Part shown: positions 1-60,068 of the stretch, piece after piece
How positions within the stretch are numbered: the stretch's first letter is position 1
Layout: every line of letters starts with the position of its first letter
From: Candidatus Babeliales bacterium
Lineage (GTDB): Bacteria > Babelota > Babeliae > Babelales > Vermiphilaceae
Reading direction: 5' to 3'
DNA: 64,000 nucleotides
Assembly: GCA_963743635.1 (NCBI GenBank)
Contig: CAVUQO010000002.1
Span: 1-64,000 of the forward strand
The notes under the pieces: model-generated
What the model saw: only the letters and a program-made list of their open reading frames with translations
What the model was told of the DNA's origin: nothing
Databases searched by the model: none
Program-made: the position numbers and the translations under genes

Positions 1-1698
1 GGTTATGACAAAGTATTGGATGTGCCTATCAATCAAGCGCGTTTATTTGATTATTTTAATGCAATGCTGAGTTCGGAGTTTAAGAGAACAGCAACAAAGG
101 GCGGTAAATTTACCTGAAATAAGCAGTGACCTTTTTCAAGAGCTGCTGAACGACCTGGGTTGGGTGGAGCAAGTCGCGCTCAGCAGCAACTAAATGAGAC
201 GGAGCAACAGGCGGTAAGAAGAATAATGCAAACTATGCCGGCAGTTGCGTTTGATAGAGATGCATTAGAGGTATTAATAGCGCAATTACAAGCCGCCGAT
301 TTTTTACAGCAAGCATCATTGCTAGAGCTCTATGCGCATCAGATAGCAGATATGATCATGTCAGATGAATCAATGAGACTGTTAAGTCAAGGCGATCAGG
401 AATATGTGGCATTGATAACTAATTTGTTCCCTCATTTGAAAAAGCAGATTGCGGAAAATATGCCAAGATCAGGAATATGGCTTGAGCAGTATACGATTGA
501 GCATGATGATATAGTTTTGTCAGTAGCGATATCAGCAGATGGCAATAGGGTAGTGACGGGATCTGTTGATAAAACGGCAAAGATAGTTGTATGGAATGGC
601 AATGCATGGCTTGAGCAGTATACGATTCCGCATACTATGATAGTTGATTCAGTAGCGATATCAGCAGATGGCAATACGGTGGTGACGGGATCTTGGGATG
701 ACACGGCAAAGATAGTTGCGTGGAATGGCAATGCATGGCTTGAGCAATATAATATTGCGCATCGTGGGATGGTTAGGTCAGTAGCGATATCAGCAGATGG
801 CAATAAGGTAGTGACGGGATCTGAAGATGATACAGCAAAGATAGTTGCATGGAATGGGGCTGCGTGGGTTGAGCAATATACGATTCGTCATAATGAGGGG
901 AGGGTTTTATCAGTAGCGATAGCAGCAGATGCCAATAGGGTGGTGACGGGATCTATTGATATGACGGCAAAGATAGTTGCGTGGAATGGCAATGCATGGA
1001 TTGAGCAGTATATGATTCCGTATAATCATACGGTTAGTTCAGTAGCGATATCAGCAGATGGTACGAGAGTGGTGACGGGATCTTGGGATTATACGGCGAA
1101 GATAGTTGCATGGAATGGCAATGCATGGATTGAGCAGTATACGATTCGGCATACTATGATAGTTGATTCAGTAGCGATATCAGCAGATGGCAATAGGGTG
1201 GTGACAGGATCTTTAGATAGAACGGCAAAGATAGTTGCATGGAATGGCAATGCATGGGTTGAGCAATATAATATTGCGCATAATAATTCGGTTGCATCAG
1301 TAGCGATATCCGCAGATGGCAATAGGGTGGTGACAGGATCTAAAGATGGTTCGGCAAAGATAGTAGCATGGAATGGCAGTGCATGGATTGAGCAGTATAC
1401 GTTTGCGCATACTGATTCGGTTAATTCAGTAGCGATATCAGCAGATGGCAATAGGGTAGTGACCGGATCTCGAGATGATACGGCAAAAATAGTGGGGCTT
1501 TTGCCAAAATCATTACCAGGAATATCTGATTTTGATACAGCGTTATTTGAACATCTATTACTGTGGGCTCGCGATAAAAAGCAGAAGATAAGTAAAATGG
1601 ATTGGATTAACAATATTTTGAATATGATTCAATGGCAAAAGCTACGGCGCGAAGATCAAGCAGAACTTCAAAAGTTAATTCGAGAAACAATGCAATAG
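1..1698 (+). CDS. BTB/POZ-like + 8x WD40 repeat protein, 5'-truncated by the window edge, apparent frameshifts at about 80-170
   Basis: Bases 1-80 read GYDKVLDVPINQARLFDYFNAMLSSEF, matching the downstream paralog. ORF 160..1698 has LQAADFLQQASLLELYA and eight 43-aa units of the form HxxxVxSVAISADGNRVVTGSxDxTAKIVAW. Confidence 0.85.
475..1500 (+). repeat. Intragenic tandem array of 8 x ~129-bp WD40 units
   Basis: Recurring tcagtagcgatatcagcagatggcaatagggtggtgacgggatct...tggaatggcaatgcatgg. Confidence 0.95.
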
Positions 1699-1851: not shown

Positions 1852-3777
1852 ATGGAGAGAAATAAAATCATAGCAGTTGCAGTATTGGCGATTGGAATCG
1901 TTGCATGGCGCATGGGGGCGATGGAGCAAGAGTCTGGCAAAAAACGTGATGCTGGAGAGATGTCCAAGAATATAGGCGGTGCACGGTCTACCAAGAGGCA
2001 GCGACTTCAAGGTGCACACGAGGAAGATATTCCAGTAGGAATGATTAGGGTGATATTGAGTTATGACAAAGTATTGGATGTGCCTATCAATCAAGCGCGT
2101 CTATTTGATTATTTTAATGCAATGCTGAGTTCGGAGTTCAGAGAAGAGCATGTAAGGGCGGTAAATTTACCTGAAATAAGCAGTGGCCTTTTTCAAGAGC
2201 TGCTGAAAGATCTGGATTGGGTGGAGGGAGTGCGCGCTCAGCAACAAGCAAATGAGACGGAGCAACAGGCAGCAAGAAGAAGAATAGTGCAAACTATGCC
2301 AGCAGTTGCGTTTGATAGAGATGCATTAGAGGTATTAATAGCGCAATTACAAGCCGCCGATTATTTACAGCAAGCATCGTTGATAGAGCTCTATGCGCAT
2401 CAGATAGCAGATATGATCATATCTGCTGAATCAATGAGATTGTTGAGTCAAAGTGATAAGGAATACAGTGACTTCATAATAGCCTTAATAACTGCATTGC
2501 CTTCTCATTTGGCGTTGCATATTTTGAAAAGTATGCCAAGAGCAGGAATATGGCTTGAGCAGTATACGATTGCGCATGATGATGGTTTGGTTGACTCAGT
2601 AGCGATATCAGCAGATGGCAATAGGGTGGTGACGGGATCTCAAGATAGTACGGCAAAGATAGTAGCATGGAATGGCAATGCATGGATTGAGGATCATACG
2701 ATTCGGCATGCTGATATAGTTACCTCAGTAGCGATATCAGCAGATGGCAATAGGGTAGTGACGGGATCTGATGATAATACGGCAAAGATAGTTGCGTGGA
2801 ATGGTAATGCATGGGTTGAGCAAGATACGATTAGGCATGCTGGGATGGTTCATTCAGTAGCGATATCAGCAGATGGCAATAGGGTGGTGACGGGATCTCA
2901 AGATAATACGGCAAAAATAGTGGCATGGAATGGCAATGCATGGATTGAGCAGTATACGATTCCGCATAATCATTCGGTTGAATCAGTATCAATATCAGCA
3001 GATGGCAATAGGGTGGTGACGGGATCTCAAGATTACAAGGCAAAGATAGTGGTATGGAATGGCAATGCATGGATTGAGCAGCATACGATTCGGCACAATG
3101 GTGTGGTTAGATCAGTAGCGATATCAGCAGATGGCAATAAGGTGGTGACGGGATCTGGAGATGATAGAGCAAAGATAGTTGCATGGAACGGCAATGCATG
3201 GATTGAGCAGCATACGATTCGGCATACTATTGGGGTTAACTCAGTAGCGATATCAGCAGATGGCAATAGGGTGGTGACGGGATCTGATGATAATACGGCA
3301 AAGATAGTTGCATGGAATGGCAATGCATGGATTGAGCAGCATACGATTCGGGATACTATTGGTGTTAGATCAGTAGCGATATCAGCAGAGGGCAATAGGG
3401 TGGTGACGGGATCTTGGGATGGCACGGCAAGGATAGTGGTATGGAATGGCAATGCATGGGTTGAGCAGCATACGATTCCTCATAATGATTCGGTTGTATC
3501 AGTAGCGATATCAGCAGATGGCAATAGGGTGGTGACGGGATCTTGGGATGATACGGCAAAGATAGTGGGAGTGGGATTTTTGCCAACATCATTACCGGGG
3601 ATATCAGATTTTAATGCCTTGTTATTTGAACATCTATTACTGTGGGCTCGCGATAAAAAGCAGAAGATAAGTAAAATGGATTGGATTAACAATATTTTGA
3701 ATATGATTCAATGGCAAAAGCTACGGCGCGAAGATCAAGCAGAACTTCAAAAGTTAATTCGAGAAACAATGCAATAG
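1852..3777 (+). CDS. Secreted BTB/POZ-like + 8x WD40 protein (putative effector)
   Basis: Signal peptide ending MGA|ME; basic NLS-like KKR...KRQRL; BTB-like YFNAMLSSEFREE...VNLPEIS..LFQELL...LQAADYLQ..L; 8 WD40 units. Confidence 0.9.
   Translation: MERNKIIAVAVLAIGIVAWRMGAMEQESGKKRDAGEMSKNIGGARSTKRQRLQGAHEEDIPVGMIRVILSYDKVLDVPINQARLFDYFNAMLSSEFREEHVRAVNLPEISSGLFQELLKDLDWVEGVRAQQQANETEQQAARRRIVQTMPAVAFDRDALEVLIAQLQAADYLQQASLIELYAHQIADMIISAESMRLLSQSDKEYSDFIIALITALPSHLALHILKSMPRAGIWLEQYTIAHDDGLVDSVAISADGNRVVTGSQDSTAKIVAWNGNAWIEDHTIRHADIVTSVAISADGNRVVTGSDDNTAKIVAWNGNAWVEQDTIRHAGMVHSVAISADGNRVVTGSQDNTAKIVAWNGNAWIEQYTIPHNHSVESVSISADGNRVVTGSQDYKAKIVVWNGNAWIEQHTIRHNGVVRSVAISADGNKVVTGSGDDRAKIVAWNGNAWIEQHTIRHTIGVNSVAISADGNRVVTGSDDNTAKIVAWNGNAWIEQHTIRDTIGVRSVAISAEGNRVVTGSWDGTARIVVWNGNAWVEQHTIPHNDSVVSVAISADGNRVVTGSWDDTAKIVGVGFLPTSLPGISDFNALLFEHLLLWARDKKQKISKMDWINNILNMIQWQKLRREDQAELQKLIRETMQ
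2548..3570 (+). repeat. Intragenic tandem array of 8 x ~129-bp WD40 units
   Basis: Same nucleotide unit as 475-1500. Confidence 0.95.
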
Positions 3778-15757: not shown

Positions 15758-16360
15758 TTAGCACGTTACTGGGGCATAATTATACTTGCGAGAATATCTC
15801 TGAGCAGCATAGATGATCTTATCTGCAGCATCAGCGCCTGCAACTATAGCATAAGCAGATGCAAAGTTGTTGCATTGAGATATTGTTTCAAGATTCTTCC
15901 TGAGGCAGGTTGTAAGATCTCTCTCAGATATAAGAATATCCCGCTTTTTTTGATATTCCAGTTCTTCGACCGTAGGATTAAAAAATCTATATATGCTGTA
16001 TACTCCTCCGGTAGCAACGACTCCTCCTGCCACGTATGGTGCAGCCGGTGCGCTCGCAATTACAATAATGGCAGCTTTTGCGGTGACCGCTGCTTTTGTT
16101 GCAGCAGCAGCAATAGCAGCACCTGTTTTGGTTGCAGCTGCACCTATCATGGTAAGAGCTCCGGTGCCAAATTGAGCCCCAAATTGATTCCCGAACGCTG
16201 CTGATGTATCTTTTAATGCTGGCATGTTCTTTTCGATAACCTCATCTAGTTTTTCAAGTCCTTTTACCCCCATTGCATCATGCTTTGCAAGGCTATGATT
16301 ATGTGTTGCAATGGCAGAAATGACGATTGCACATAAGGCAATATTTCTAATATTTTTCAT
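15758..16360 (-). CDS. Exported protein with a long Gly/Ala-rich hydrophobic segment
   Basis: Signal peptide (SLA|K); FGAQFGTGALTMIGAAA...YVAGGVVATGGVYSIY. Confidence 0.75.
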   Translation of the reverse strand: MKNIRNIALCAIVISAIATHNHSLAKHDAMGVKGLEKLDEVIEKNMPALKDTSAAFGNQFGAQFGTGALTMIGAAATKTGAAIAAAATKAAVTAKAAIIVIASAPAAPYVAGGVVATGGVYSIYRFFNPTVEELEYQKKRDILISERDLTTCLRKNLETISQCNNFASAYAIVAGADAADKIIYAAQRYSRKYNYAPVTC

Positions 16361-16396: not shown

Positions 16397-16882
16397 TTAT
16401 ACATTTTTTAACGCAATTTCTAGTGCAAGAAACTCTTGAGCGCATTGCTCATAGCGCTTGACAAGCTTGAATAATAAATGGTATTCGATGCTATATCGAA
16501 TCATCATAGCCTTGGTTCTTTCAAGGACCTCATCAAAATTTTTAGTAACGTTATCGAATCTGGTTGCAAGGAATTTTTGAAGGTCTTCTGCGGCCCATCC
16601 AACGTTATCTAACTCTTCTCCAAAAGGATGTATTTCTTTTTTGAATTGTTCATATTCCTCTTTATTTGATATTCCAAAATGCATTGACAAGAAGTCTTTC
16701 TGCGCTTGGAATGTAGAATCTATCCACTGTTGTTTTTCTTCAATCATTCTAGCAAGCTGAAAAAGCTCAACTTCTTTGGCCTGAAGATCGTTATTTAATT
16801 GTTGTATGCGTGTATCGGCTCTATTGCCAATAAGAGTACATGGTACTAATAACACGCTTAAAATCATGCCTTTATAGGTCAT
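16397..16882 (-). CDS. Exported coiled-coil hypothetical protein
   Basis: Probable start MTYKGMILSVLLV after an aagga RBS; heptad-rich body. Confidence 0.7.
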   Translation of the reverse strand: MTYKGMILSVLLVPCTLIGNRADTRIQQLNNDLQAKEVELFQLARMIEEKQQWIDSTFQAQKDFLSMHFGISNKEEYEQFKKEIHPFGEELDNVGWAAEDLQKFLATRFDNVTKNFDEVLERTKAMMIRYSIEYHLLFKLVKRYEQCAQEFLALEIALKNV

Positions 16883-16924: not shown

Positions 16925-16944
16925 GGCCCCGGAATTCCGGGGCT
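16925..16944. terminator. GC hairpin downstream of the RLRGG operon
   Basis: ggccccggaattccggggct. Confidence 0.5.
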
Positions 16945-17028: not shown

Positions 17029-17166
17029 CTATTTATTAATCCATTCATTAACTTCATCTTCAATATCTACGAGATTTTTAGGGCTATAGAAATAACGCCA
17101 TATCCATACATTCCATAAGAGAGTCAAGATAAGGCCTCCAAGAAGAGTATGTTGAAACATAGTCAT
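17029..17166 (-). CDS. Small single-TM membrane protein (45 aa), not in the ORF track
   Basis: Hand translation MTMFQHTLLGGLILTLLWNVWIWRYFYSPKNLVDIEDEVNEWINK*; ATGA overlap with the upstream stop. Confidence 0.6.
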   Translation of the reverse strand: MTMFQHTLLGGLILTLLWNVWIWRYFYSPKNLVDIEDEVNEWINK

Positions 17167-17312
17167 TTCTTTTTCCTCAAGTATCGAGAAATAAGCACAA
17201 ATTCATCTTCGCCCTTTAGCACATACCATTTTATGTAATAGAGTACTAACCAGGTGAAAAGACCGATTATGACTATCTCATACCAATACCAATAAAAAAA
17301 CCATGTTCTCAC
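17163..17312 (-). CDS. Small aromatic-rich single-TM protein (49 aa)
   Basis: GTG start overlaps the upstream TGA (GTGA); MRTWFFYWYWYEIVIIGLFTWLVLYYIKWYVLKGEDEFVLISRYLRKKK. Confidence 0.6.
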   Translation of the reverse strand: MRTWFFYWYWYEIVIIGLFTWLVLYYIKWYVLKGEDEFVLISRYLRKKK

Positions 17313-17848
17313 ACAGGGCCTGTCGCAACGGCGCCTGTCATGCCAACAGCTATACCAGCTGCACACGCTGCTTTATGAATAGGTATAGCAAACATTTTTT
17401 CGAGTGTTGTTGAAACTGGACCGTAACCAGGGCCTGTTAAGGCTGCAACGCCATGGATTAATCCATGACCAACTAAAGTAACCGCACCATATCCGAGGTA
17501 AGCTCCGAGCCATGCTCCGAAAGCGCCACCACCTCGTAAACGCTGTTGTATATCAATGTTATAAGTTTCATTCAACGTTTTATTCACTTTTAGGTATGCA
17601 CCTGCAGTGAGCATTTCAGCGAGCTTGCCCGTTGAAATATTTCGTAATTCGGGAGCCATTTGAGCAGCTTGCAATACATGCGCGCCATCTTGGTCTTCAA
17701 TAGTGAATGAGTTGTTTTCGTGGATTATTGAGACGTTCTCGATTGATCGAGGCAATGATAATGATTCTCTATCAATGATCATTGCGTTGCTGAGACTGAT
17801 AGTCATCAGCATAGATAAGGCAATAAAGCCTTTTTTGATTGGTAACAT
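17309..17848 (-). CDS. Secreted precursor: signal peptide + ~85-aa domain ending RLRGG + 72-aa Gly/Ala-rich hydrophobic peptide
   Basis: SNA|MII...IDIQQRLRGG|GAFGAWLGAYLGYGAV...GAVATGPV. Confidence 0.85.
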   Translation of the reverse strand: MLPIKKGFIALSMLMTISLSNAMIIDRESLSLPRSIENVSIIHENNSFTIEDQDGAHVLQAAQMAPELRNISTGKLAEMLTAGAYLKVNKTLNETYNIDIQQRLRGGGAFGAWLGAYLGYGAVTLVGHGLIHGVAALTGPGYGPVSTTLEKMFAIPIHKAACAAGIAVGMTGAVATGPV

Positions 17849-17869
17849 AGAGTTACTCCGTATATGATT

Positions 17870-18013
17870 AAATGTACTGCTAAGTATTCAATTGCTTCAA
17901 TTACGAGATCTCACATACTCTTTTTGACTAATCACACAGGTAACCTTAAGCATTTTCAGCAACTCGAGCCAAAGATTAACGGTGAGAGGAGTCAAATCCT
18001 TCTTATGTTCCAT
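17870..18013 (-). pseudogene. Possible degenerate ribbon-helix-helix DNA-binding gene
   Basis: MEHKKDLTPLTVNLWLELLKMLKVTCVISQ then, after a frame change, KSM*DLVIEAIEYL. Confidence 0.3.
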
Positions 18014-19080: not shown

Positions 19081-19343
19081 CCTATAGAATATCTGAAATG
19101 AATGGAGGAATGCTAGAATAATATGAATTATCTTATTGAAGATCTCTCGCACAATGCTCTCCCTCTCTTTCGTTCAGGATAGCATCACTCGAGACGAACG
19201 GAAGGAGGGGATTTTACTTATTTTTATGATGAAATCGCCATTTAATATTAGTCTGCTTGCATCGAGGTCGCGATTGCAGAATTTTTTTTGTCGAGGTATG
19301 GTCTAATCATATCCAAAGGCACTCTCTATCAAGGTCTATTATT

Positions 19344-19925
19344 ATGGAAAAAACGAATCGCAAGGCAGCCTATCCGATTCATGAGCTTATCTTAAATCGT
19401 TGGTCGCCGCGTGCAATGTCGGGCGAGTCGATTTCGGATGCTGAATTAATGTCTTTATTTGAGGCGGCTCGGTGGGCACCCTCATCATATAATAGTCAGC
19501 CATGGCGCTTCATCTATGCAAAACGAGATACTCCAGCATGGGATCCTTTGTATAATTTAATGGTGCAATTCAACAAGGACTGGACTAAAAATGCGGCCGT
19601 CTTGATGGTGATTGTATCTCGTGATACTTTTGAATATAATGGTAAGCCATCGATCACCCATAGTTTTTGTACTGGTTCGGCATGGGAAAATCTTGCGTTG
19701 CAAGGGACTGCCAACGGGCTTGTAGTACACGGCATGGAAGGATTTGATTACAAAAAAGCAAAAGAAGTTTTACATATTCCCGACGGCTATACCGTTGAAG
19801 CGATGTGTGCAGTGGGTCGCCCGGGAAATAAAGCAGATTTGCCAGAAAAGATGCAACAAGAAGAAATGCCTTCTGATCGTAAACCGATAACAGACTTTAT
19901 ATTTGAAGGTACTTTCAAGGAATAA
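19344..19925 (+). CDS. Nitroreductase family protein
   Basis: RWSPRAM, EAARWAPSSYNSQPWRF, GLVVHGMEGFD. Confidence 0.92.
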   Translation: MEKTNRKAAYPIHELILNRWSPRAMSGESISDAELMSLFEAARWAPSSYNSQPWRFIYAKRDTPAWDPLYNLMVQFNKDWTKNAAVLMVIVSRDTFEYNGKPSITHSFCTGSAWENLALQGTANGLVVHGMEGFDYKKAKEVLHIPDGYTVEAMCAVGRPGNKADLPEKMQQEEMPSDRKPITDFIFEGTFKE

Positions 19926-20019
19926 TAACATTAAGAAACTGCGTGTCGGGCTATTAATAATCACATCAATACTCCTAGTATCAGGCGTATTGATTTTTCA
20001 ACCATCAGTAAGGGAGAAC

Positions 20020-20670
20020 ATGACAAAATATCTTTCATCATTATTGTTACTATCAGGCGTGTGGGCTGCATCAGTAGATGCTAAGGATACGCACCGTAAA
20101 CCAGAATATAAAGTAGATGAAATCTTTCTCAATCGTTGGTCAGCGCGTGCGATGTCGGGCGCATCAATTTCTGATGCTGAACTGATGTCTCTCTTTGATG
20201 CAGCGCGTTGGGCTCCATCAGAATATAATAAGCAACCATGGCATTTTATTTATGTAAAACGTGGGACTAAACATTGGGATACGATGTTTAATCTGTTGGT
20301 TCCATTCAATCAAACATGGTGTAAAAATGCGTCTGCATTAGTACTTATCGTTTCTCTCAATACGAATCAAGACGGCACTCCGCTGCGCAGTCATTCGTTT
20401 GACACCGGCGCTGCATGGGAAAATTTTGCGTTGCAAGGCTCAATGCGTGGGCTGGTAGTCCATGGTATGGCTGGCTTCGATTATGACGGTGCTAAAAAGG
20501 ATCTTAATATTCCTGATAATTACACGGTAGAAGCAATGGCTGCAGTTGGATATCCTGGCAGTGAAGATGTGTTGCCAGAAGGAATGCGTGCCGCTGAAAA
20601 AAACAGATCAGGTCGCAAGCCCATTGTAGAATTTGTATCTGAAGGTTCATTTAATTCTAACGTGAAGTGA
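20020..20670 (+). CDS. Nitroreductase paralog with an N-terminal signal peptide
   Basis: agggag RBS; MTKYLSSLLLLSGVWAASVDA|K; RWSARAM, AARWAPS. Confidence 0.88.
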   Translation: MTKYLSSLLLLSGVWAASVDAKDTHRKPEYKVDEIFLNRWSARAMSGASISDAELMSLFDAARWAPSEYNKQPWHFIYVKRGTKHWDTMFNLLVPFNQTWCKNASALVLIVSLNTNQDGTPLRSHSFDTGAAWENFALQGSMRGLVVHGMAGFDYDGAKKDLNIPDNYTVEAMAAVGYPGSEDVLPEGMRAAEKNRSGRKPIVEFVSEGSFNSNVK

Positions 20671-20677
20671 TCACGCT

Positions 20678-21094
20678 ATGTTAACCTCTTTAAGTCATTA
20701 TTTCTTGTCTGAATGGCTGTGGTCGTTAACGCTTGGTTTATATCATATGCCGATCAATATTTTTATAATGATCGGCTTATCTATTTTTATACTGCGCCAA
20801 AGAACCGTGCCAGCAGTCTTACTTTCGGTATCTGCAAATCTCTTTTCATTCTTGATATTTATCGCAATAGGATACGTTCTGCATATAGACTATGTGCCGG
20901 AACATGACGATATCTATGTCATTACGAATATGGCACTAGGGTGCGGTGCTTTGGGCATAATCTATGCAGTGCTTCAAACGCTCTATGTACAAGGCTTGCG
21001 CTGGTACTATGAACTCAGCTTTAGAGGGTCCATTATCATGATTTGGGTAAGCAACTTAGTCACTGCATTCATTATGTACCGAGTACTTCATTAA
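20678..21094 (+). CDS. Small integral membrane protein (about 4 TM)
   Basis: Hydrophobic 138-aa ORF. Confidence 0.75.
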   Translation: MLTSLSHYFLSEWLWSLTLGLYHMPINIFIMIGLSIFILRQRTVPAVLLSVSANLFSFLIFIAIGYVLHIDYVPEHDDIYVITNMALGCGALGIIYAVLQTLYVQGLRWYYELSFRGSIIMIWVSNLVTAFIMYRVLH

Positions 21095-23309
21095 TTGAAT
21101 TTTTGGCTGTGCTAGGATACGTAACCGCCTCAATAGTACTGCGCGTCGCATGCTCCTCAAAACCAAGCTGAATAATCGTATCGACAAAATCCATCGGCTT
21201 CATGCCAATTTCAGCAGCTTGATGGAAGATGCAGGTTGCGGGCGTCATACCCGGAAGCGAATTGATCTCTAATATGACTACGCGATCTTTGTCTGTTGGA
21301 CTTTGTTCTGCTGTTTGATAGAAACAATCGATACGCGCATACCCTTTGCAGCCAACAGCGGCATACACTTTTTCCATTTCATCTTGCACAAAACGTAATG
21401 TGGCAGCCGGTAGTGGAGCTGGCGTTTGATTTTCACCTGCGCCTGGCAAGAATTTTTCTTCAATCGATAAAATATCTGATGTAGATACCGCTTGGCTTGG
21501 CGGCAATGCGCGTGGCGTTTCGTTGCCAATAACGCCGACGGTCAGTTCCATACCAATGACGCATTCTTCAATAAGTGCATGCCTTTTGCCGTGCGCAAAT
21601 AATGTCTCAACCGCATTTTCCAGCTCTTCAAGGGTGCGTGCCTTTTGAACCATTACGCTGCAGCCATCATCATGTGGTTTGATGATGCACGGCAATCCAA
21701 ATTCTTCAAGCGCCGCATCAAAAATTACTTGCTTATTTGAGTGCCATGTTTCGTGATCCACGAAAATTGCGCCCGGGACTTGAAAGCCACGATGCTTTAA
21801 AAATTGCGTTGTTTTATATTTATCCATGCAGAGTGCGCTGGTGAGTACCGATGATCCGTTATACGGTAAGCCAAGCAATTCAAGCGCTCCTTGCACCGTA
21901 CCATTTTCTCCTTCGCCTCCATGTAGTCCGATAAATACGAAATCGACCATTGAAGGCAAGTCTGACCATAAAAGAGGCGTAGTGCCTTTGATGGCATCTT
22001 CAATTTCTTTGGTAGAGTTGCGCACGAGTAATGATTGATTTAACGGGTAAAGTTTCATCTCATTGCTCACAAATATTGGCACAACTTCATATTTTTGAGG
22101 CGACAATTTATAGGTAATATTGCGTCCAGATTCGAGTGATATTTCCTTTTCATTAGAGCGACCGCCCATAAAAACGGCAACGCGAGTTTTAGTTTGCTGC
22201 ATAACGCGTGATTCTTTCTCTTCTTGCAGGGTAATTGCATCAAGCATACCGTAAGCCTGCAACTCTGTTTCAATTAAATGATTGATTAATGTGGTATGGC
22301 TCATATTGATTTCAGCGGCTTGTCGGAATAAAAAGCTTGAAGGAGCCATGCCCGAAAGTGTGTTCGGATCAATGATGATAACTTTGTTATCCTTGGTTAC
22401 AAAGCCGTCGATACGTGAAATAGTCTTGATTTCAAGAGCAAGCGTGGTATCAATACATGCTTTATGAATTGCCTGTATAACTTCATCAGAACATCGTGGT
22501 GGTGTAAATTTGGTTGCGCGGCCGGGCATATATTTTTGTTCATAGTCAAAGAGATGTGTGTTCTCTTCAGGTACGATTTCAGTTGGCGGGAGTGGCAATA
22601 ATTTATTTTTCTTATAATCAGCGATGGTAATGCATGAAAATTCCATGCCCTCAATCTTTTCTTCAATTAAAATTGCCTGATCTTTTTCTTCATGAATTGT
22701 GGCTGCATGTATCATTGCATCATGTAGTTCGTCTTCTTTAAAAACGATACGAATGCCCAGACTCGAGCCTTCTTTGAATGGCTTGATGATATAGGGAAAA
22801 GCAACTCCCAAAGCTTGCATACGCTGCACGATGGTTGCAGTATCGACGGTTTTAAGTTCATGGGGGTAGAGATGTATGCCGCGCGGCGTGTTAATGCGAT
22901 GCATATTGAGAATCTCTTTTTGCATGATTTTATCCATGGAGAGCGCGCTTGCAAAAACTTTTGAACCAAGATAGGGGATGTTTAAAATTTCGAGCATACC
23001 TTGGAGTGTGCCATCTTCCGCGTAACGTCCGTGGGTTGCGATATAGATGAAATCGATACAAGTTGGTAATGCATCCCAGGTTAATCGCGTGGCTTCTGAT
23101 TCAAGGCGATGTTGAAAATCACTGATTTTACCGCGATGCAAAAAATGCCATGGTAATATAAAAAGTGCGCCATCGTTGCGCTGGAAAATAGGAGTGATGT
23201 CATAGCGCGATGTATCAAGATGATCACATATGGTCCGGCCAGAATTAAATGATACTTCTTTTTCAATTGATTTGCCGCCCATTAAGACGCCAACACGTAA
23301 TTTATTCAT
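21072..23309 (-). CDS. ddl: D-alanine--D-alanine ligase, two full ATP-grasp Ddl units fused
   Basis: GGKSIEKEVSFNSG...HGRYAEDGTLQG...NTLSGM and GGRSNEKEISLESG...HGGEGENGTVQG...EINSLPGMT. Confidence 0.9.
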   Translation of the reverse strand: MNKLRVGVLMGGKSIEKEVSFNSGRTICDHLDTSRYDITPIFQRNDGALFILPWHFLHRGKISDFQHRLESEATRLTWDALPTCIDFIYIATHGRYAEDGTLQGMLEILNIPYLGSKVFASALSMDKIMQKEILNMHRINTPRGIHLYPHELKTVDTATIVQRMQALGVAFPYIIKPFKEGSSLGIRIVFKEDELHDAMIHAATIHEEKDQAILIEEKIEGMEFSCITIADYKKNKLLPLPPTEIVPEENTHLFDYEQKYMPGRATKFTPPRCSDEVIQAIHKACIDTTLALEIKTISRIDGFVTKDNKVIIIDPNTLSGMAPSSFLFRQAAEINMSHTTLINHLIETELQAYGMLDAITLQEEKESRVMQQTKTRVAVFMGGRSNEKEISLESGRNITYKLSPQKYEVVPIFVSNEMKLYPLNQSLLVRNSTKEIEDAIKGTTPLLWSDLPSMVDFVFIGLHGGEGENGTVQGALELLGLPYNGSSVLTSALCMDKYKTTQFLKHRGFQVPGAIFVDHETWHSNKQVIFDAALEEFGLPCIIKPHDDGCSVMVQKARTLEELENAVETLFAHGKRHALIEECVIGMELTVGVIGNETPRALPPSQAVSTSDILSIEEKFLPGAGENQTPAPLPAATLRFVQDEMEKVYAAVGCKGYARIDCFYQTAEQSPTDKDRVVILEINSLPGMTPATCIFHQAAEIGMKPMDFVDTIIQLGFEEHATRSTIEAVTYPSTAKNSINEVLGT

Positions 23310-37175: not shown

Positions 37176-37310
37176 TGTTGGCACTAAAGCAAGTGTGATT
37201 TTACGAAAAAGAATAAAAAAACTTGCTCAATAGCTCAAATCTTGTTACAAAATCTCTATAAATTATGTCACAAACCCTTTTCATGCAGCTAATGGCTCGG
37301 AGAGTATACT

Positions 37311-38269
37311 ATGGTTGAGTATTCACAATATCCTCAATATCGTTTTGATTTTCTAAAATATCGTCTTTTCGTGGCATTGTTTACTGTGGGATTCGTGGTC
37401 GCGTTCATCGGTATTTATGTGTATCGCAGTGAATCGAGCGTGGGAGAAGCATTTAGTTATAGCGTAGATTTTACGGGCGGAACGCAAGTTCTTTTTAAAT
37501 TTCAGAAGCCAGTATCGGGATCTCAAGTTCGTGAAGTATCTTGAACGCAATGGCTGGAAGAATCCGGTCATGCGAGAATTTACAGCAGGAGAACGAAATT
37601 ATCGTCCGCGTGAAAGAATTTGACAATAATGCGCAAGGGGTCGGCGAACGTATGCAAAAGGCATTCAATGCTGAATTTCCATGATACCGAATTGCTCAGC
37701 ATTGAAGGCGTAGGGGCGGGTGTGGGACGTGAATTGCGCTCAAAATCAATTCGTGCAGTATTGATTGCGCTTCATTATGTTGCTTTACATCGCATTTACC
37801 TTTTGGTCAGCTGCATTTGCAGTTGGTGCAGTTGTAGCATTGTGTCATGATGCATTCTGTAATGGTTGCGCGTAATTCTGTTTCTTGATCACTGAAATTT
37901 CAATCGATGTAATTGGTGCAATTTTGGCGGTTCTCGGTTATTCGATTAACGATACCATCGTGATTTTTGCCCAGATTAGAGATAATTTGGCAAAAATGCG
38001 GGGCAAATCGATGGCAAGAAATAGTAAACGCAAGTTTGAATCAAACGCTTCGTCGCACTTTTTTAACCAGCTTTTCAACGGCGTTAACGGTTGGTGCAAT
38101 GTTTTTCTTTGGTGGCGAAGGATTAAGAGATTTCTCCCTCACCTTGTTGGTAGGTATCATATTTGGTACATACTCATCAATTTACATCGCAAGCCCTATT
38201 ATGATGATGCTCTATAAAGAGCGGCATAAGAATCACATATATAAGCATTTAAATGCATGGTGCAGATAA
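37311..38269 (+). CDS. secF: Protein translocase subunit SecF, multiple apparent frameshifts
   Basis: VDFTGGTQV; VGAGVGREL; GAILAVLGYSINDTIVIF; SLNQTLRRT; GTYSSIYIASP spread over several frames. Confidence 0.9.
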
Positions 38270-38479
38270 TGCTTCATAAACAAATATCAGTATTCCATTC
38301 TGAAGATGTTGAGTCAGTAGATCAAATAATCTATGAGACCTGTGGAAACATCTGAAGGAGCATGAGAGTTCTATAGTTTGCATTATGAAGTCTACTCTTT
38401 AAGGGAATATGCGATACGCATGTTAATTCCATGCTATCATTCTCATATAATTATTTCTGTTCGTAGGAGGAAATGAACG

Positions 38480-40174
38480 ATGGCTCAAGATAAGCCAGTA
38501 AAGCAAACGAATACTCGTTCGTTGCAAGAAAATGAATCTCAAGATATCGAACGATTTGAGGCACATACCGATACCATGTCTGAGAATTAATGGATCAGCC
38601 AGGTTTTATCGCTCAAGAACAATCGGGTCCTGAGCAACGAGATCACCGACAACAACGTGATCGTCATCAAGATTATAAGTCCCGCGCTCGGGGCCAAGGT
38701 CAACAACGCCAGATCGTCAAGATCGTCAAGCCCAAAGACGAAACGAGAACTCATGAACAAAAACGTCAGTCAAGTACGCGTATTAAATCTATGGGCAATG
38801 GTGATGGCGAGATGAATCACGGCCGGCTGTAGAATTTCAAAAAATACCCGTCGACGAAATGTCGTTGACTGAATTAAATATGTATGCACGTCGCTTGGGT
38901 ATTATTGGCGCAAGTCTGATGAATAAAACAAGAGTTATTGAGCGTATTAAATATGTTGAAGCTCATCCTGAACTTGAAAATGAAGTTGAAGGGGTACTTG
39001 AAAAATTGCCTGATGGATTTGGATTCTTGCGTTCAGCAAAATATGATTATGTTTCTGGCCCGGATGATGTCTATGTTTCGCCATCGCAAATTCGACGATT
39101 TAATTTACGAACTGGTGATATTGGTTACCGGCGTAATTCGTAAACCAAAAGAAGGTGAAAAATATTTTGCGTTGCTTAAAGTTACCAAAGTTAATTATGA
39201 AGATCCGGCTTTCTATGCAGCTGATCGTCATCATTTTGATCGTCTTATCACCATTACATCCAAATAAAAAATTTAATCTTGAATATGATCCTACGCGTGT
39301 ATTTCAACGCGTATCATGGATCTGTTTACACCAGTTGGTAAAGGGCAACGTGGATTAATTGTTGCGCCACCAAAAGTGGGTAAAACAATGCTTGCTTAAA
39401 GAGATTACGCAAGCAATTATTGCCAATCATCCTGAAGCGATCTTATTATTTTGCTGGTTGATGAGCGGCCTGAAGAAGTTGCTGATATGAAGCGTACAGT
39501 GCGAGGTTCATCTGCTGAAGTGATCAGTTCAACTTTTGATGAATCGGCTGATCGGCATGTGCAAGTTGCTGAAATTGTTCTTGAAAAAGCAAAACGATTG
39601 GTTGAAGCGGGCAAGGATGTGGTTATTATTCTTGATTCTATTACTCGTTTTGCTCGTGCATATAATACGATTGCTCCAGCATCAGGTAAAATCTTAACCG
39701 GTGGTATTGATGCGAATGCATTGACAGCGTCCAAAACGATTCTTTGGTGCTGCGCGTAATACTGAAGAAGGTGGTTCATTAACTATTATTGCATCTGCGT
39801 TGGTTGAAACCGGTTCTCGTATGGATGAAGTGATTTACGAAGAATTTAAAGGTACGGGTAATATGGAAATGCATATGACGCGTAAACTTTCAAATCGTCG
39901 TATTTATCCATCATTTGATCTATTAATGTCCGGTACTCGCCGTGAAGATCTCTTGCTTCCTGAAGAAGATTTGAATAAAGTTTGGGTATTGCAGAAATTC
40001 TTGGCTACCATGAATACCATTGAAGGTATGGAATTCTTGATTGATAAGATGAAGAAATCCAAAACCAATCGTGAATTCTTGGAATCAATCAATAAGAAAA
40101 CAACGGCGACCGTCAGCAATGGCAATGGTCACGGTAGTGATAGTGGTAGCCACAGCAGAAGTTCTCACGAGTAA
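38480..40174 (+). CDS. rho: Transcription termination factor Rho with a Q/R/D-rich N-terminal extension, multiple apparent frameshifts
   Basis: [61 protein letters not shown]. Confidence 0.93.
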
Positions 40175-43330: not shown

Positions 43331-43792
43331 GTGTGCGATATCGTGAAGATTTTGGCCCAAAATAAAAAAGCTTTTCATGACTACGAAATCCTTGAGAAAC
43401 TCGAGGTAGGAATTGTGTTGCGTGGGGATGAGGTTAAATCTCTTCGTGCCGGCAGCGCATCCCTTATTGGCGCTTTTGCAACCATTCATAACGGCGAACT
43501 CTTTATGATTAATGCCAATGTTCCCGTCTATGAACGCGCATATTCCAAAGATGCTGATCCTACGCGTACCCGTAAATTATTATTGCATAAGCGGCAGTTG
43601 AACCGCTTAATTGGCGACATTTCCCGCAAAGGCATTACGGTCGTACCATTACGCATGTATCTCAATGATAAGGGTAAAATCAAGGTAGAGCTTGGCATCT
43701 GTAAAGCCAAAAAAGCAGCAGGTAAAAAGCAGGAATTGCGCGAACGGGATATCAATCGCCAAACGCAACGGGAGCTCAAAGGGGGCTATTAG
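43331..43792 (+). CDS. smpB: SsrA-binding protein
   Basis: NKKAFHDY, GIVLRGDEVKSLR, RTRKLLLHK. Confidence 0.97.
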   Translation: MCDIVKILAQNKKAFHDYEILEKLEVGIVLRGDEVKSLRAGSASLIGAFATIHNGELFMINANVPVYERAYSKDADPTRTRKLLLHKRQLNRLIGDISRKGITVVPLRMYLNDKGKIKVELGICKAKKAAGKKQELRERDINRQTQRELKGGY

Positions 43793-43899
43793 AGGTGTAA
43801 CCTGCTCTTATTTAGCGCCTTATTGATCGATCTCAACCCGAATGGTTACAAATAATGAGATTTCTGGTACAATAAGGTTACTTATCTTTGAAGTTTTAC

Positions 43900-44261
43900 G
43901 GGGGCGTACTGGTTTCGACGTGTTAAAGAGAGCACGGAGAGCATGCCGAGCGTTGATTGAGTGCTCGTTAAACAATCTATCAAAAACAATAAGTGCAAAC
44001 GATACGTTTGTACCAGCTTTCGCGTAAGCGCTAGCTAGTCTTGTTTAGCACAACGTTTCTATCCGTTAGCTAAACTCGTATTACCCTAGATAGACCTGCC
44101 GTTGCCAGGATTTTTGGTAGCGTAGCGCGGCAGTATTACGAAACTGACCTATTGATAACGTTGGGTTTCCGGAGCAGTCAATTTGTATAAACGGAAAATA
44201 AGCGTGTAGTTGCTTTGTGCCTGCTATAATGCGGACATGGGTTCGATTCCCATCGCCTCCA
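43900..44261 (+). ncRNA. ssrA: tmRNA; tag peptide ANDTFVPAFA* at 43995-44027
   Basis: 5' GGGGGCGtactggtttcgac; 3' T-arm atgggttcgattcccat and acceptor cgcctcca; adjacent to smpB. Confidence 0.95.
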
Positions 44262-44438
44262 TTCATTTTTCAATCCTCGTAAGTTGAGAGCTTTCGTCGC
44301 AGCCGATAAAAATGAATGGCTGCGCCGCTTCTGATCAGAAAAACTTTAATAGTAAAAAAGACAGATCGGTGCCTGTTCTTCGTAGAACGAAGAGCCTAGT
44401 AGAACCACCTCTTCCAAAGAATTTACATGAATAAAATA

Positions 44439-50810: not shown

Positions 50811-51003
50811 TTTTTTACCCACTCGAGAATCTCATCTTTCAAACGAGGCTCAATTTTAGGGCCGCCAGTCTTCGCTAATACTTCGAAGTGCAGCCTCAGG
50901 GAGTGTTTTGCTTCGTCGGGCAGGCTTATCATTTTTTCTCTTGATGTTTTTTTACCCACTCGAGAATCTCATCTTTCAAACGAGGCTCAATTTTAGGGCC
51001 GCC
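50811..51003 (-). repeat. Exact 56-bp duplication of the alaS 3' end (50811-50866 and 50948-51003) flanking a palindromic element
   Basis: ttttttacccactcgagaatctcatctttcaaacgaggctcaattttagggccgcc twice. Confidence 0.95.
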
Positions 51004-53548: not shown

Positions 53549-53687
53549 TGCCTGTAACCTTACGCTAAAAATGATGGCATGTGTTTAAAAATGCTCATCG
53601 AGCCGGAATAATCATTGCAGTAAAGCATACTCAGATTTTTAAGGTGAGGCAAACAGACTCAAAAAACATGAGGGGCATTAGAAAAAT

Positions 53688-59068: not shown

Positions 59069-59114
59069 GCGGGGACTGTAGTAATGAGTGATTAATCATA
59101 AAAAGGAGACGGAT

Positions 59115-60068
59115 ATGTATCCAGCTACTCAGGGACGATGGCTAAGCATAATGAGCATAGCATGCATATTGTTATGCAGCATGAATGGAGCGCAGGCAGC
59201 AAAAAACAGAGCGGCAAAGCGCAACCCCGCACAGCGCAGCGCAGCGGTTCTCGCCATGCAGCGTGCGAGAAAGAATGCCGAGAACGGGAAAGAAAGCGCT
59301 CAAAGTAATAGCAGCCCAAAACGATGTGCAGAAGTGCCAGCTACGATAGTCATTTCTATACCAAAAAGTGGCACAACGCTCATGAGAAAGCTTTTGACCG
59401 ATCTGACCGATAAACAGTGTTTAAGCAGATCAGAGTGTCCCGAATTATATTTGGTGACGCCAAGAGATTTTGAACGAGTTATAAAGCTGCCGGCTGAAAA
59501 ATTTTGGTCAGTTCATCTTTTTTATAATGCCAATTATGCCAAACGATTAAAAGAAGATAAATGCGCTTGCCTCTTTATTTACAGAGATCCGCGTGATCAG
59601 CTTGTTTCATTCATGTATTACATGCTCAAACACAATAAATCATGGCCTGGTGTTAATGGGCATTCGCACGCGGAGATTATTAACGATTTGATCGATACCT
59701 GCGCATTCCAGCGCAATAGTCCGCCGGTAAAGAGTATATTGCAGCTGTATGAATCGTATCTACCATGGCTCAATGAGGAGCATGTGCTCGCGATTCGCTT
59801 TGAAGATATCGTGGGCGAAAAAGGAGGCGGATCCGATGAGACTCAGCTTGCTACGATACGCGCTATAGCGCATCACATGCAGCTGGCGCTTTCAGATGAG
59901 GAGATTGAAGAGATAGCGCGCAATCTCTTTGGCGGCACCGAGACCTTTAGAAAAGGCCAAATCGGCTCTTGGAAAGATCACTTCACGCCACAGCAAAAAG
60001 AACGATTCAAGCAAGTCGCCGGCCAATTGCTGATCGACTTGGGCTATGAAAGCGATTTTAATTGGTGA
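59115..60068 (+). CDS. Sulfotransferase-domain protein with signal peptide
   Basis: aaggag RBS; PKSGTT 5'-PSB; YRDPRDQLVS 3'-PB; FRKGQIGSWK. Confidence 0.88.
   Translation: MYPATQGRWLSIMSIACILLCSMNGAQAAKNRAAKRNPAQRSAAVLAMQRARKNAENGKESAQSNSSPKRCAEVPATIVISIPKSGTTLMRKLLTDLTDKQCLSRSECPELYLVTPRDFERVIKLPAEKFWSVHLFYNANYAKRLKEDKCACLFIYRDPRDQLVSFMYYMLKHNKSWPGVNGHSHAEIINDLIDTCAFQRNSPPVKSILQLYESYLPWLNEEHVLAIRFEDIVGEKGGGSDETQLATIRAIAHHMQLALSDEEIEEIARNLFGGTETFRKGQIGSWKDHFTPQQKERFKQVAGQLLIDLGYESDFNW

What the first reader, a model, noticed from the sequence alone, without database searches (positions are those of the whole stretch)
17029..17848. Ubiquitin-tail (RLRGG) precursor of a hydrophobic peptide, coupled to two small membrane proteins: candidate host-activated peptide toxin system
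Seen: a signal peptide, an ~85-aa domain starting with Met and ending RLRGG (aa 103-107, nt 17528-17542), then a 72-aa Gly/Ala-rich, almost uncharged hydrophobic tail. Two tiny single-TM ORFs follow with 4-nt start/stop overlaps (17163-17312 GTGA; 17029-17166 ATGA), then a hairpin. Established: RLRGG is the ubiquitin C-terminus cut by deubiquitinases; double-Gly leaders release bacteriocins; bacteriocin immunity genes are often small coupled membrane ORFs. Inference: a Sec-exported pro-peptide that is unmasked by host DUBs (or a dedicated GG protease) to release a membrane-active peptide, with immunity or accessory peptides. No peptidase-ABC transporter is nearby.
Basis: partly seen in the sequence, partly recalled or inferred. 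Interest (0 to 1): 0.85.

Follow-up and report, generated by a model that had tools for sequence, protein, structure and literature searches.

The report
Exported glycine-zipper hairpin protein operon
A three-gene operon, probably from a protist-dependent bacterium of the phylum Dependentiae, encodes an exported protein of a large unstudied family plus two tiny membrane partners; its ubiquitin-like RLRGG looks like a conserved hinge before a membrane hairpin, and nothing found supports a host-activated toxin.

Summary
A 179-aa ORF (17848..17309, minus strand) has a signal-like N-terminus, an ~80-aa beta-rich domain, RLRGG at aa 103-107 and a 72-aa Gly/Ala tail. Two 4-nt-overlapping small ORFs and a hairpin follow.

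The protein belongs to a large unannotated family: 1162 cluster representatives at E<=1e-3. It has no Pfam, NCBIfam, PHROG, PADLOC, PDB-sequence or Foldseek match.

The family motif is R-L-x-G-G-G. GG is near-invariant, but the ubiquitin R74 position is variable: exact RLRGG occurs in 6 of 157. R103 covaries with Y85 inside the N-domain. The tail is more conserved than the N-domain (40% vs 26% pairwise identity) and ends in TGPV. Covariation and AlphaFold (pLDDT 92) both show an antiparallel helical hairpin with buried polar pairs. The N-domain runs beta-beta-beta-alpha-beta-beta, not beta-grasp.

Both small ORFs, their 4-nt overlap and a terminator recur in a Dependentiae genome whose main protein is 32% identical.

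Best reading (0.5): an uncleaved envelope protein anchored by a glycine-zipper hairpin, working with two single-pass partners. Rivals: glycine-zipper toxin with immunity (0.2); GG-cleaved pro-protein (0.1).

The parts
17856..17859 (-). GGAG ribosome-binding site, 7 nt before the ATG of the main gene
   Evidence: Read directly.
17309..17848 (-). Main gene, 179 aa plus stop: member of a large unannotated family with signal peptide, beta-rich domain, R-L-x-G-G-G, a 72-aa helical hairpin and a TGPV C-terminus
17783..17848 (-). Signal-peptide-like N-terminus (aa 1-22, S-N-A before Met23)
   Evidence: Sequence. By a crude rule of my own, 135 of 157 family members have a signal-like N-terminus. No SignalP was available.
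17543..17782 (-). N-domain (aa 23-102): strands 40-44, 47-52, 55-58, helix 73-81, strands 84-90, 96-102
   Evidence: AlphaFold2 model with 114-row alignment; pLDDT 95-97 over this part. No Foldseek match at E<=1e-3.
17525..17542 (-). R-L-R-G-G-G (aa 103-108): hinge between the last strand of the N-domain and helix 1
   Evidence: Of 157: R103 111, L104 105, position 105 variable, G106 155, G107 157, G108 151. R103 covaries with Y85. pLDDT dips here (85 for the block 101-110).
17312..17527 (-). Gly/Ala-rich tail (aa 108-179): antiparallel helical hairpin (helices 109-136 and 139-176, turn at G139-P140) ending in T-G-P-V
   Evidence: AlphaFold pLDDT 96-98. Covarying pairs 120-158, 128-150, 124-154 and 111-177 share one antiparallel register. 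Tail length is 72 in 75, 77 in 30 and 76 in 24 of 157; TGPV in 100 of 157.
17163..17312 (-). Small ORF 1 (49 aa, GTG start overlapping the main gene's stop as GTGA): aromatic N-terminus (F-Y-W-Y-W-Y-E invariant), one hydrophobic segment, basic C-terminus
   Evidence: Homologues P0159-P0161 at 77-90% identity. L001 6444-6584 at 52% identity, E 3e-15. Alignment; hydropathy.
17029..17166 (-). Small ORF 2 (45 aa, ATGA overlap with small ORF 1; GAGGA 7 nt upstream): M-T-x-F-Q-H start, one hydrophobic segment, acidic C-terminus
   Evidence: Homologues P0163 and P0164 at 78-80% identity. L001 6581-6721 at 42% identity over 31 aa, E 1e-8. Alignment.
16925..16944 (.). Palindromic G+C-rich hairpin 85 nt after the operon's last stop; possible operon end
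   Evidence: 7-bp stem within the minimum-energy fold; z -2.8 for the 136-nt stretch. No U tract on the minus strand. The L001 operon ends in a canonical stem plus T-run.
16397..16882 (-). Possibly linked neighbour: exported coiled-coil-like protein. The likely start is the ATG at 16882, not 16975
   Evidence: Weak evidence only. BLASTP E 4e-4 over 53 aa to the L002 protein two genes upstream of that locus's family member. Not found by phmmer.
15758..16360 (-). Possibly linked neighbour: exported Ala-rich protein with a hydrophobic segment
   Evidence: Weak evidence only. phmmer E 1.7e-4 with high bias to L002 713-1498, which directly precedes that locus's family member. BLASTP is significant only without composition correction.

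Best explanation
The three genes form one operon for a small envelope membrane assembly. It is not a ubiquitin-mimicking pro-toxin.

The main protein is exported by Sec. Its ~80-aa beta-rich domain stays on the periplasmic side. The R-L-x-G-G-G stretch is the end of that domain's last strand plus a flexible triple-glycine hinge. The 72-aa Gly/Ala tail is an antiparallel helical hairpin held together by buried polar pairs: K-E in most members, Y-H here. The hairpin presents glycine-zipper faces for packing with further copies or with partner helices. The two translationally coupled single-pass proteins are its membrane partners.

Shown here: the anatomy, the family, the conservation pattern, the hairpin, and the conserved operon. 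Inferred: that the protein is not cleaved, that the hairpin sits in a membrane, that it oligomerises, and that the small proteins bind it. The biochemical role (envelope stabiliser or small channel) is a guess by analogy with other glycine-zipper hairpins.
For: Family size and copy number:
- 1162 cluster representatives at E<=1e-3, 692 at <=1e-10 and 126 at <=1e-30.
- One copy in each of the three DNA stretches held.

Conservation:
- The tail is better conserved than the N-domain: 40.0% vs 25.9% mean pairwise identity over 157 sequences.
- Tail length is nearly fixed: 72, 77 or 76 aa in 129 of 157. The C-terminus is TGPx in 137 of 157.

Hairpin:
- AlphaFold2 with 114 rows gives pLDDT 92.0, pTM 0.68, and helices 109-136 and 139-176.
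- Independent covariation gives the same antiparallel register. Pair 120-158 is K-E in 93, R-E in 8 and Y-H in 23; pair 128-150 is H-E in 82. Of the 60 strongest MI-APC pairs, 35 lie within the tail.
- Gly at 111, 115 and 119 occurs in 147-153 of 157.
- The tail carries about 1.3 K/R and 1.4 D/E per 72 aa. The 19-residue hydropathy maxima are 1.3-1.6, which is marginal.

Hinge:
- R103 covaries with Y85 of the N-domain. This is the second strongest pair, with Y-R in 101 of 157.
- Position 105 is variable.
- pLDDT dips at 101-110.

Operon:
- Both small ORFs recur in L001 behind a main protein only 32% identical (28% in the best tblastn segment), with the same 4-nt overlap between them and a canonical terminator.
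- Closer homologues of both exist.
- Each small protein has one hydrophobic segment.

Context is chromosomal. L002 lies beside the ribosomal S6 and S18 genes and typA. There is no match in 50,697 phage or 72,556 plasmid records.
Against: - Nothing here shows that the protein stays uncleaved. The near-invariant GG after a hydrophobic residue at -4 is also what LxGG- and double-glycine-specific proteases cut.
- None of the 60 strongest covarying pairs links the N-domain to the tail, so the two modules may act separately.
- The hairpin turn carries no basic residues and the helices are only marginally hydrophobic. That fits a hairpin that inserts after export (outer membrane, or another cell's membrane) as well as an inner-membrane anchor.
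- The small ORFs are absent behind the L002 homologue, where unrelated small ORFs follow.
- In L001 the operon lies between an integrase gene and a Gp49/HTH pair, a setting typical of accessory genes.
- The family's spread across genomes is unknown. The single genome scan used two narrow peptide patterns and found 2 loci.
Confidence: 0.5

Rival explanations
1. Glycine-zipper pore-forming toxin with immunity. The exported protein, whole or processed, inserts its Gly/Ala hairpin into a target membrane, either the host's or a competitor's, and depolarises or permeabilises it. The two small membrane proteins protect the producer.
For: - A C-terminal glycine-zipper region next to small membrane-protein genes is the layout of known membrane-depolarising toxins with membrane-bound immunity: EsxX with ExiC/ExiD, TspA with TsaI, Tse5 with Tsi5 (PMC12744356, passages read).
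- The helices are marginally hydrophobic and the turn is charge-free, so the tail could cross Sec and insert later.
- In L001 the operon lies between an integrase gene and a Gp49/HTH pair.
- The small ORFs differ or are missing in L002, as immunity genes often do.
- The likely hosts of these bacteria are protists. This rests on the two Dependentiae loci and on my recall of the phylum's biology.
Against: - The putative toxic part is the most conserved part of a very large family. Toxin cores and their immunity genes usually diversify.
- There is one copy per locus.
- L002 has a housekeeping neighbourhood.
- No T6SS/T7SS, Rhs, LXG, C39 or ABC-exporter hit appears among the 52 window ORFs scanned.
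- No PADLOC or PHROG match.
- No phage or plasmid copies.
- The buried K-E and H-E pairs suggest a stably folded hairpin rather than a promiscuous inserter.
Confidence: 0.2
2. GG-cleaved pro-protein. The N-domain is a carrier or pro-domain that ends in an LxGG site. A protease cuts after G107 and frees the 72-aa hairpin. The protease could be a host deubiquitinase-like or LxGG-specific enzyme, or a bacterial double-glycine peptidase encoded elsewhere.
For: - [LIVM]-x-G-G is present in 125 of 157, and [RK]-[LIVM]-x-G-G in 91 of 157.
- The motif directly follows a beta-strand, as in ubiquitin (recalled).
- One member, P0010 (with P0158), carries two N-domain units joined immediately after R-L-Q-G-G. 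The second unit restarts with the motif seen at mature N-termini. This is formally like a polyubiquitin or ubiquitin-fusion layout.
- No N-domain-to-tail covariation among the top 60 pairs.
- pLDDT dips at the junction.
- The fixed tail length and conserved ends would suit a defined released product.
Against: - The N-domain is not a beta-grasp, either by strand order or by Foldseek. From my own knowledge, most deubiquitinases need the ubiquitin body, not only the tail.
- The R74-equivalent position is variable, and exact RLRGG is found in 6 of 157.
- R103 is explained by an intradomain contact with Y85.
- The third Gly (151 of 157) belongs to the zipper's start.
- The Sec signal places the site in the periplasm. 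No route to host cytosol is known here.
- No C39 peptidase appears among the window ORFs scanned.
- Two literature searches found no precedent.
Confidence: 0.1

Closest known systems
Glycine-zipper 2TM outer-membrane lipoproteins (SlyB, YfgH; Pfam PF05433-type)
   Same: Exported envelope proteins that combine a Gly-rich helical hairpin with a beta-rich periplasmic domain. They are reported to stabilise the envelope (search listing and abstract starts only).
   Different: The domain order is reversed here and there is no lipobox. hhalign of the 114-row family profile against E. coli SlyB gives 9.4% probability over 24 columns. No glycine-zipper Pfam family appears among the 25 families listed (of 38 matched) for the 114 members at E<=1. 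This family also has dedicated small partner genes.
Glycine-zipper membrane-depolarising toxins with membrane immunity proteins (EsxX/ExiCD, TelE/TipE, TspA/TsaI, Tse5/Tsi5)
   Same: A C-terminal glycine-zipper segment in an exported protein, with adjacent genes for small membrane proteins (PMC12744356, passages read).
   Different: Those toxins carry LXG or Rhs delivery domains and use T7SS or T6SS. This protein has a Sec-type signal and an unrelated N-domain. Its tail is a conserved two-helix hairpin with buried polar pairs. No sequence similarity was tested or found. Toxicity is untested.
Ubiquitin and ubiquitin-fusion or polyubiquitin precursors
   Same: A beta-strand followed by R-L-R-G-G and then directly by another polypeptide. 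One family member has tandem units joined after R-L-Q-G-G.
   Different: The strand order is beta-beta-beta-alpha-beta-beta, not beta-grasp. No ubiquitin-like hit appears in Foldseek. Position 105 is variable. The protein is Sec-exported, and a third Gly is conserved.
Double-glycine leader peptides (class II bacteriocins and microcins, NHLP/Nif11 long leaders) cut by C39 peptidase-ABC exporters
   Same: A GG directly before a Gly-rich hydrophobic peptide, and small membrane-protein genes downstream (family features recalled, not from a call).
   Different: This protein has a Sec signal peptide and a folded 80-aa domain in place of a leader. No C39/ABC gene appears among the ORFs scanned in the window. 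The 'core' is more conserved than the 'leader'.

Membership tests
Ubiquitin-like (beta-grasp) proteins with a C-terminal LRGG tail | Beta-grasp fold (beta-beta-alpha-beta-beta with the helix across a mixed sheet) | tested here: not met
   The model (pLDDT 92) has order beta-beta-beta-alpha-beta-beta. There are 0 Foldseek hits at E<=1e-3 in PDB or BFVD, and no ubiquitin-like protein in the 50 rows listed by either search.
Ubiquitin-like (beta-grasp) proteins with a C-terminal LRGG tail | Conserved L-R-G-G tail | tested here: inconclusive
   GG is near-invariant and L104 occurs in 105 of 157, but the residue before GG is variable (R in 12 of 157). Exact RLRGG occurs in 6 of 157.
Ubiquitin-like (beta-grasp) proteins with a C-terminal LRGG tail | Cleavage after GG by a deubiquitinase-type protease | not testable with these tools
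   Needs protein biochemistry.
Double-glycine leader bacteriocin / PCAT substrate | C39 peptidase-ABC exporter encoded nearby | tested here: not met
   No Peptidase_C39 or ABC hit among the 52 window ORFs scanned, nor among the L001/L002 ORFs scanned. The rest of the genome was not seen.
Double-glycine leader bacteriocin / PCAT substrate | Short cytoplasmic leader without a Sec signal; variable core peptide | tested here: not met
   The N-terminus is signal-like in 135 of 157 by a crude rule. The tail is more conserved than the N-part.
Glycine zipper 2TM lipoproteins (SlyB type) | Sequence or profile match to the family | tested here: not met
   hhalign probability 9.4%. No such Pfam family appears among those listed for the 114 members (25 of 38 families shown).
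Glycine zipper 2TM lipoproteins (SlyB type) | Lipobox signal peptide | tested here: not met
   No Cys at the predicted cleavage site in the window protein (S-N-A before Met). N-termini of the first 60 family rows were printed, with no regular lipobox seen by eye.
Glycine zipper 2TM lipoproteins (SlyB type) | Gly-zipper helical hairpin | tested here: met
   G111/G115/G119 occur in 147-153 of 157. The hairpin is shown by AlphaFold and by covariation.
Glycine-zipper membrane-depolarising toxin with immunity | Toxicity to membranes, relieved by the neighbouring membrane proteins | not testable with these tools
   Needs expression assays.
Glycine-zipper membrane-depolarising toxin with immunity | Delivery domain or secretion system (LXG/T7SS, Rhs/T6SS) | tested here: not met
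   No such Pfam hit in the protein or in the window ORFs scanned.

The most novel reading that the evidence does not exclude
The R-L-x-G-G junction is a true processing site, kept in more than a thousand lineages of obligate protist-associated bacteria. An LxGG-specific protease, from the host or the bacterium, would cut the exported carrier domain from a fixed-length 72-aa glycine-zipper hairpin. The hairpin would then assemble into a channel in a host or bacterial membrane. The two small membrane proteins would guard the producer. On this reading, the tandem N-domain member joined after R-L-Q-G-G (P0010) would be a bacterial counterpart of a polyubiquitin-type precursor built on a non-ubiquitin fold.
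Probability: 0.08. Interest if true: 0.85.

Novelty: new variant of a known kind. Interest (0 to 1): 0.42.

Why it matters
Dependentiae are a widespread and almost unstudied phylum of host-dependent bacteria with small genomes. A gene family kept in over a thousand sequence clusters, yet matching no library, is likely to mark something basic about their envelope or their dealings with the host cell.

The work gives that family a defined anatomy: exported beta domain, R-L-x-G-G-G hinge, polar-zipped glycine-zipper hairpin and TGPV end. It also gives it a confident model, two dedicated small partners and three concrete hypotheses to test.

It removes a tempting but unsupported ubiquitin reading of a five-residue string.

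Tried and rejected
Library searches with no usable result:
- Pfam, NCBIfam, PHROGs and PADLOC on the three proteins and their neighbours: no hit above noise.
- Pfam on 114 family members: no family matched by more than 3 members, best E 0.0082.
- PDB sequence profile search: best E 0.17, photosynthetic reaction-centre L chain, compositional.
- ESM Atlas, whole protein: best score 0.77. N-domain alone: no usable hit.
- Foldseek with both models against PDB, and with the second model against BFVD: nothing at E<=1e-3.
- tblastn against phages and plasmids: no match.
- Cluster look-up of 10 members: no names or taxa.

OB-fold lead. The strand order equals that of an OB fold (recalled). Weak hits include staphylococcal exotoxin-like chains (E 2.3-2.6), an RPA chain (rank 28) and phage ssDNA-binding proteins (ranks 3, 8 and 50). 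All are far from significance. This is kept as a lead only.

Ideas rejected:
- Head-to-tail cyclised peptide or conjugative-pilin-like product. I considered this because both tail ends are conserved. I rejected it because no cyclase, peptidase, DUF95 or type IV secretion gene is nearby among the ORFs scanned, and the ends are explained by the hairpin bringing G111 and G177 together.
- Phage lysis cassette, with the neighbouring Amidase_2 as endolysin. I rejected it because the amidase is not linked to the family in L001 or L002.
- C-terminal sorting signal (GlyGly-CTERM and the like, recalled). I rejected it because the tail is 72 aa, has two helices and lacks a basic end.

Complex prediction of the tail with the two small proteins. 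The queue was full on five hand-ins, then the tool was declared unavailable. It was never run, so binding is untested.

Literature:
- 'Dependentiae' with 'glycine zipper': 0 papers.
- 'RLRGG' with 'bacterial' and 'signal peptide': 0 papers.
- A broader Dependentiae search gave only general papers, seen as a listing and not read.
Full report
**1.

On the minus strand, 17848..17309 encodes 179 aa. It has four parts:
- A signal-like N-terminus: two Lys, a hydrophobic run, then S-N-A before a Met.
- A polar stretch of about 80 aa.
- R-L-R-G-G at aa 103-107 (nt 17528-17542).
- A 72-aa tail with 15 Gly, 14 Ala, 2 K/R, 1 D/E and 3 His.

The next ORF starts at a GTG that overlaps the stop as GTGA (17312..17163, 49 aa). 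The third starts at an ATG overlapping as ATGA (17166..17029, 45 aa). A G+C-rich palindromic hairpin lies at 16925-16944. On the minus strand it has no U tract.

RLRGG occurs once in the six-frame translation of the window, against 0.115 expected.

**2. The protein belongs to a large, unnamed family**

- A word-indexed search gave 9 relatives at 39-64% identity, none with a useful name or a Pfam domain.
- A profile of 11 sequences, searched against 1.84 billion cluster representatives, gave 1162 proteins at E<=1e-3, 692 at <=1e-10 and 126 at <=1e-30.
- The window protein gave no significant match in Pfam, NCBIfam, PHROGs or PADLOC. The same holds for Pfam on 114 members, PDB sequences and the ESM Atlas.
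It returned 2 confirmed loci from 367 pattern matches, both in Candidatus Dependentiae assemblies.
- The window's own genome was not among the species representatives. Its content is a chromosomal mix of housekeeping genes, WD40 proteins and type IV pilus-like genes at about 42% G+C. Together with the family's relatives, this makes a Dependentiae origin likely but not proven.

**3. What is conserved**

I aligned the window protein with all 156 proteins then in hand, dropping no rows, fragments included.

| Position | Count of 157 |
|---|---|
| R103 | 111 |
| L104 | 105 |
| 105 | variable: K48, N32, L28, R12, P10 |
| G106 | 155 |
| G107 | 157 |
| G108 | 151 |

- Exact RLRGG occurs in 6 of 157, [RK]-[LIVM]-x-G-G in 91, [LIVM]-x-G-G in 125 and GGG in 149.
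- So the double glycine is a family feature, but the ubiquitin-like wording of the window's copy is one variant among many.
- The tail is the better conserved half: 40.0% against 25.9% mean pairwise identity.
- Counted from the GG, tail length is 72 in 75, 77 in 30 and 76 in 24 of 157.
- The protein ends in TGPV in 100 of 157 and in TGPx in 137 of 157.

**4. Structure**

With the 11-row alignment AlphaFold2 gave pLDDT 76. I then built a 114-row alignment: the window protein, the two locus proteins and 111 of the 156 database proteins. I left out fragments, two-stretch or long forms and some near-duplicates by eye. This gave pLDDT 92.0 and pTM 0.68.

- N-domain: strands 40-44, 47-52 and 55-58, helix 73-81, strands 84-90 and 96-102.
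- Then a dip in confidence at 101-110.
- Then two long helices, 109-136 and 139-176.

The N-domain's order, beta-beta-beta-alpha-beta-beta, is not that of a beta-grasp. Foldseek found nothing at E<=1e-3 in the PDB or BFVD, and no ubiquitin-like protein appears among the 50 rows listed by either search. The order equals that of an OB fold (recalled). A few insignificant hits are OB-fold proteins. I keep that only as a lead, because I could not inspect coordinates.

**5. The hairpin is confirmed without AlphaFold**

- Positions 120 and 158 covary: K-E in 93, R-E in 8, Y-H in 23 of 157. The window has Y-H.
- Positions 128 and 150 covary: H-E in 82.
- In an MI-APC scan the strongest tail pairs are 120-158, 128-150, 124-154, 138-145, 135-146 and 111-177. 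All fall on one antiparallel register around G139-P140.
- Of the top 60 pairs, 35 are tail-tail, 25 are within the N-domain and none links the two.
- Positions 120, 124 and 128 are polar in nearly all members and lie on one helix face. Gly 111, 115 and 119 form a classical zipper.
- The tail has too few charges to be a soluble surface (about 1.3 K/R and 1.4 D/E per tail). Its hydropathy is marginal for a membrane span (maxima 1.3-1.6), and the turn has no basic residues.

It is therefore a membrane or oligomer-buried hairpin. I cannot say which membrane it sits in.

**6. The arginine of the motif has a structural explanation**

The second strongest covarying pair in the whole protein is Y85-R103. 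Y-R occurs in 101 of 157. Where position 85 is K or R, position 103 is mostly G, E, P, Q or N: 20 of the 26 K/R85 rows. R103 thus belongs to the fold of the N-domain, at the end of its last hairpin.

**7. The small ORFs are genes**

In L001 the family member is 32% identical to the window's in the multiple alignment, and 28% in the best tblastn segment. Two ORFs of 46 aa follow it:
- The first is 52% identical to small ORF 1 (E 3e-15). It keeps the invariant F-Y-W-Y-W-Y-E.
- The second is 42% identical over 31 aa to small ORF 2 (E 1e-8). It keeps M-T-x-F-Q-H.
- The two overlap by 4 nt as in the window. A canonical stem plus T-run follows.

Database homologues exist for both. Small ORF 1 has three at 77-90% identity. 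Small ORF 2 has two at 78-80% identity, apart from the window's own protein. One small-ORF-2 homologue shares contig length (2629) and sources with the closest main-protein homologue, so they probably lie together.

Each small protein has one hydrophobic segment. Small ORF 1 has a basic C-flank in 4 of 5 sequences.

In L002 the family member is followed by unrelated small ORFs. Profiles of the two small proteins find nothing there.

Two exported neighbours of the window operon, a coiled-coil-like protein and an Ala-rich protein, may have counterparts just upstream of the L002 gene. The similarity is weak and composition-biased.

**8. Settings differ**

- Window: between hypothetical exported proteins, near an Amidase_2 and a GH3 gene.
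- L001: between an integrase gene and a Gp49/HTH pair.
- L002: next to the ribosomal S6 and S18 genes and typA.
- Each stretch holds one family member.
- No copy in the phage or plasmid collections.

**9. Interpretation**

Best reading (0.5). This is an uncleaved, Sec-exported envelope protein. Its beta domain faces the periplasm, and its tail is a polar-zipped glycine-zipper hairpin in a membrane. It works with two single-pass partners. The RLRGG is the strand end plus a triple-glycine hinge.

Rival 1 (0.2): a glycine-zipper pore-former with two immunity proteins. This layout is known from EsxX/ExiCD, TspA/TsaI and Tse5/Tsi5 (PMC12744356, passages read).
- For it: the marginal hydrophobicity, the island-like setting in L001 and the variable small ORFs.
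- Against it: the strong conservation of the supposed toxic part, one copy per locus, and the absence of any delivery system among the ORFs scanned.

Rival 2 (0.1): a GG-cleaved pro-protein.
- For it: the near-invariant [LIVM]-x-G-G, the lack of N-domain-to-tail covariation, and one member (P0010/P0158) with two N-domain units joined right after R-L-Q-G-G.
- Against it: the non-ubiquitin fold, the variable position 105, the structural role of R103, the periplasmic location and the absence of a C39 peptidase in the window.

Cleavage itself is untested.

**10. Comparison with known kinds**

The family works most like glycine-zipper hairpin envelope proteins such as SlyB and YfgH (listing and abstract starts only). 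It is not a member of that family: hhalign gives 9.4% probability, there is no lipobox, and the domain order is reversed. It fails the fold test for ubiquitin-like proteins and the context tests for double-glycine bacteriocins. I file it as a new variant of a known kind.

**11. Limits**

- No signal-peptide or transmembrane predictor was available, and I had no access to model coordinates.
- The complex prediction was never run.
- Only one narrow genome scan was possible.
- The window's sequence seems to carry many frameshifts in essential genes. The three ORFs studied are nonetheless intact and match homologues end to end.

Noticed in passing
window 50929-53584 (-): The alanyl-tRNA synthetase gene is split over at least five reading-frame pieces. 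Pfam tRNA-synt_2c matches profile positions 1-153, 139-266, 268-428 and 465-552, and a further piece matches tRNA_SAD. Either it is a pseudogene or, more likely for an essential gene, the assembly carries indel errors.
   Followed up: partly
window 37293-40174 (+): secD/secF and rho are likewise broken into several frames (Sec_GG, SecD_SecF_C x2, Rho_RNA_bind x2, ATP-synt_ab x2 on separate pieces). Together with alaS, this suggests frequent frameshift errors in this sequence.
   Followed up: partly
window 21072-23309 (-): A 745-aa protein made of two complete D-alanine--D-alanine ligase units in tandem. The NCBIfam Ddl models match residues 4-351 and 372-726.
   Followed up: no
window 160-1698 and 1852-3777 (+): Two adjacent WD40 beta-propeller proteins (512 and 641 aa). 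These are eukaryote-like repeat proteins of the kind often seen in host-associated bacteria.
   Followed up: no
window 19257-19925 and 19903-20670 (+): Two adjacent paralogous nitroreductase-family genes. The second carries a long hydrophobic N-terminal extension, as if exported or membrane-anchored.
   Followed up: no
window 59088-60068 (+) and 62342-63172 (-): Two Sulfotransfer_1-domain proteins flank a GDP-mannose 4,6-dehydratase-type gene, in a lower-G+C stretch (36-37%). This may be a sulfated-glycan locus.
   Followed up: no
protein P0010 (and P0158), from the representative search: A 288-aa family member has two N-domain units in tandem. The first ends R-L-Q-G-G and is followed at once by a repeat of the motif seen at mature N-termini. 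Only the second unit carries the hairpin tail.
   Followed up: partly
L001 4060-5274 (-) and 6853-7588 (+): In this Dependentiae assembly the three-gene operon lies between a tyrosine-recombinase (Phage_integrase) gene and a Gp49-like/HTH_3 pair that looks like a toxin-antitoxin module.
   Followed up: partly
window 17897-18013 (-): A 38-aa ORF with a good AAGGAAAG ribosome-binding site lies in the 270-nt gap upstream of the main gene. I did not check whether it is conserved.
   Followed up: no
window 43331-44264 (+): smpB is followed directly by a tmRNA gene (Rfam 143.6 bits) with the tag peptide ANDTFVPAFA.
   Followed up: no
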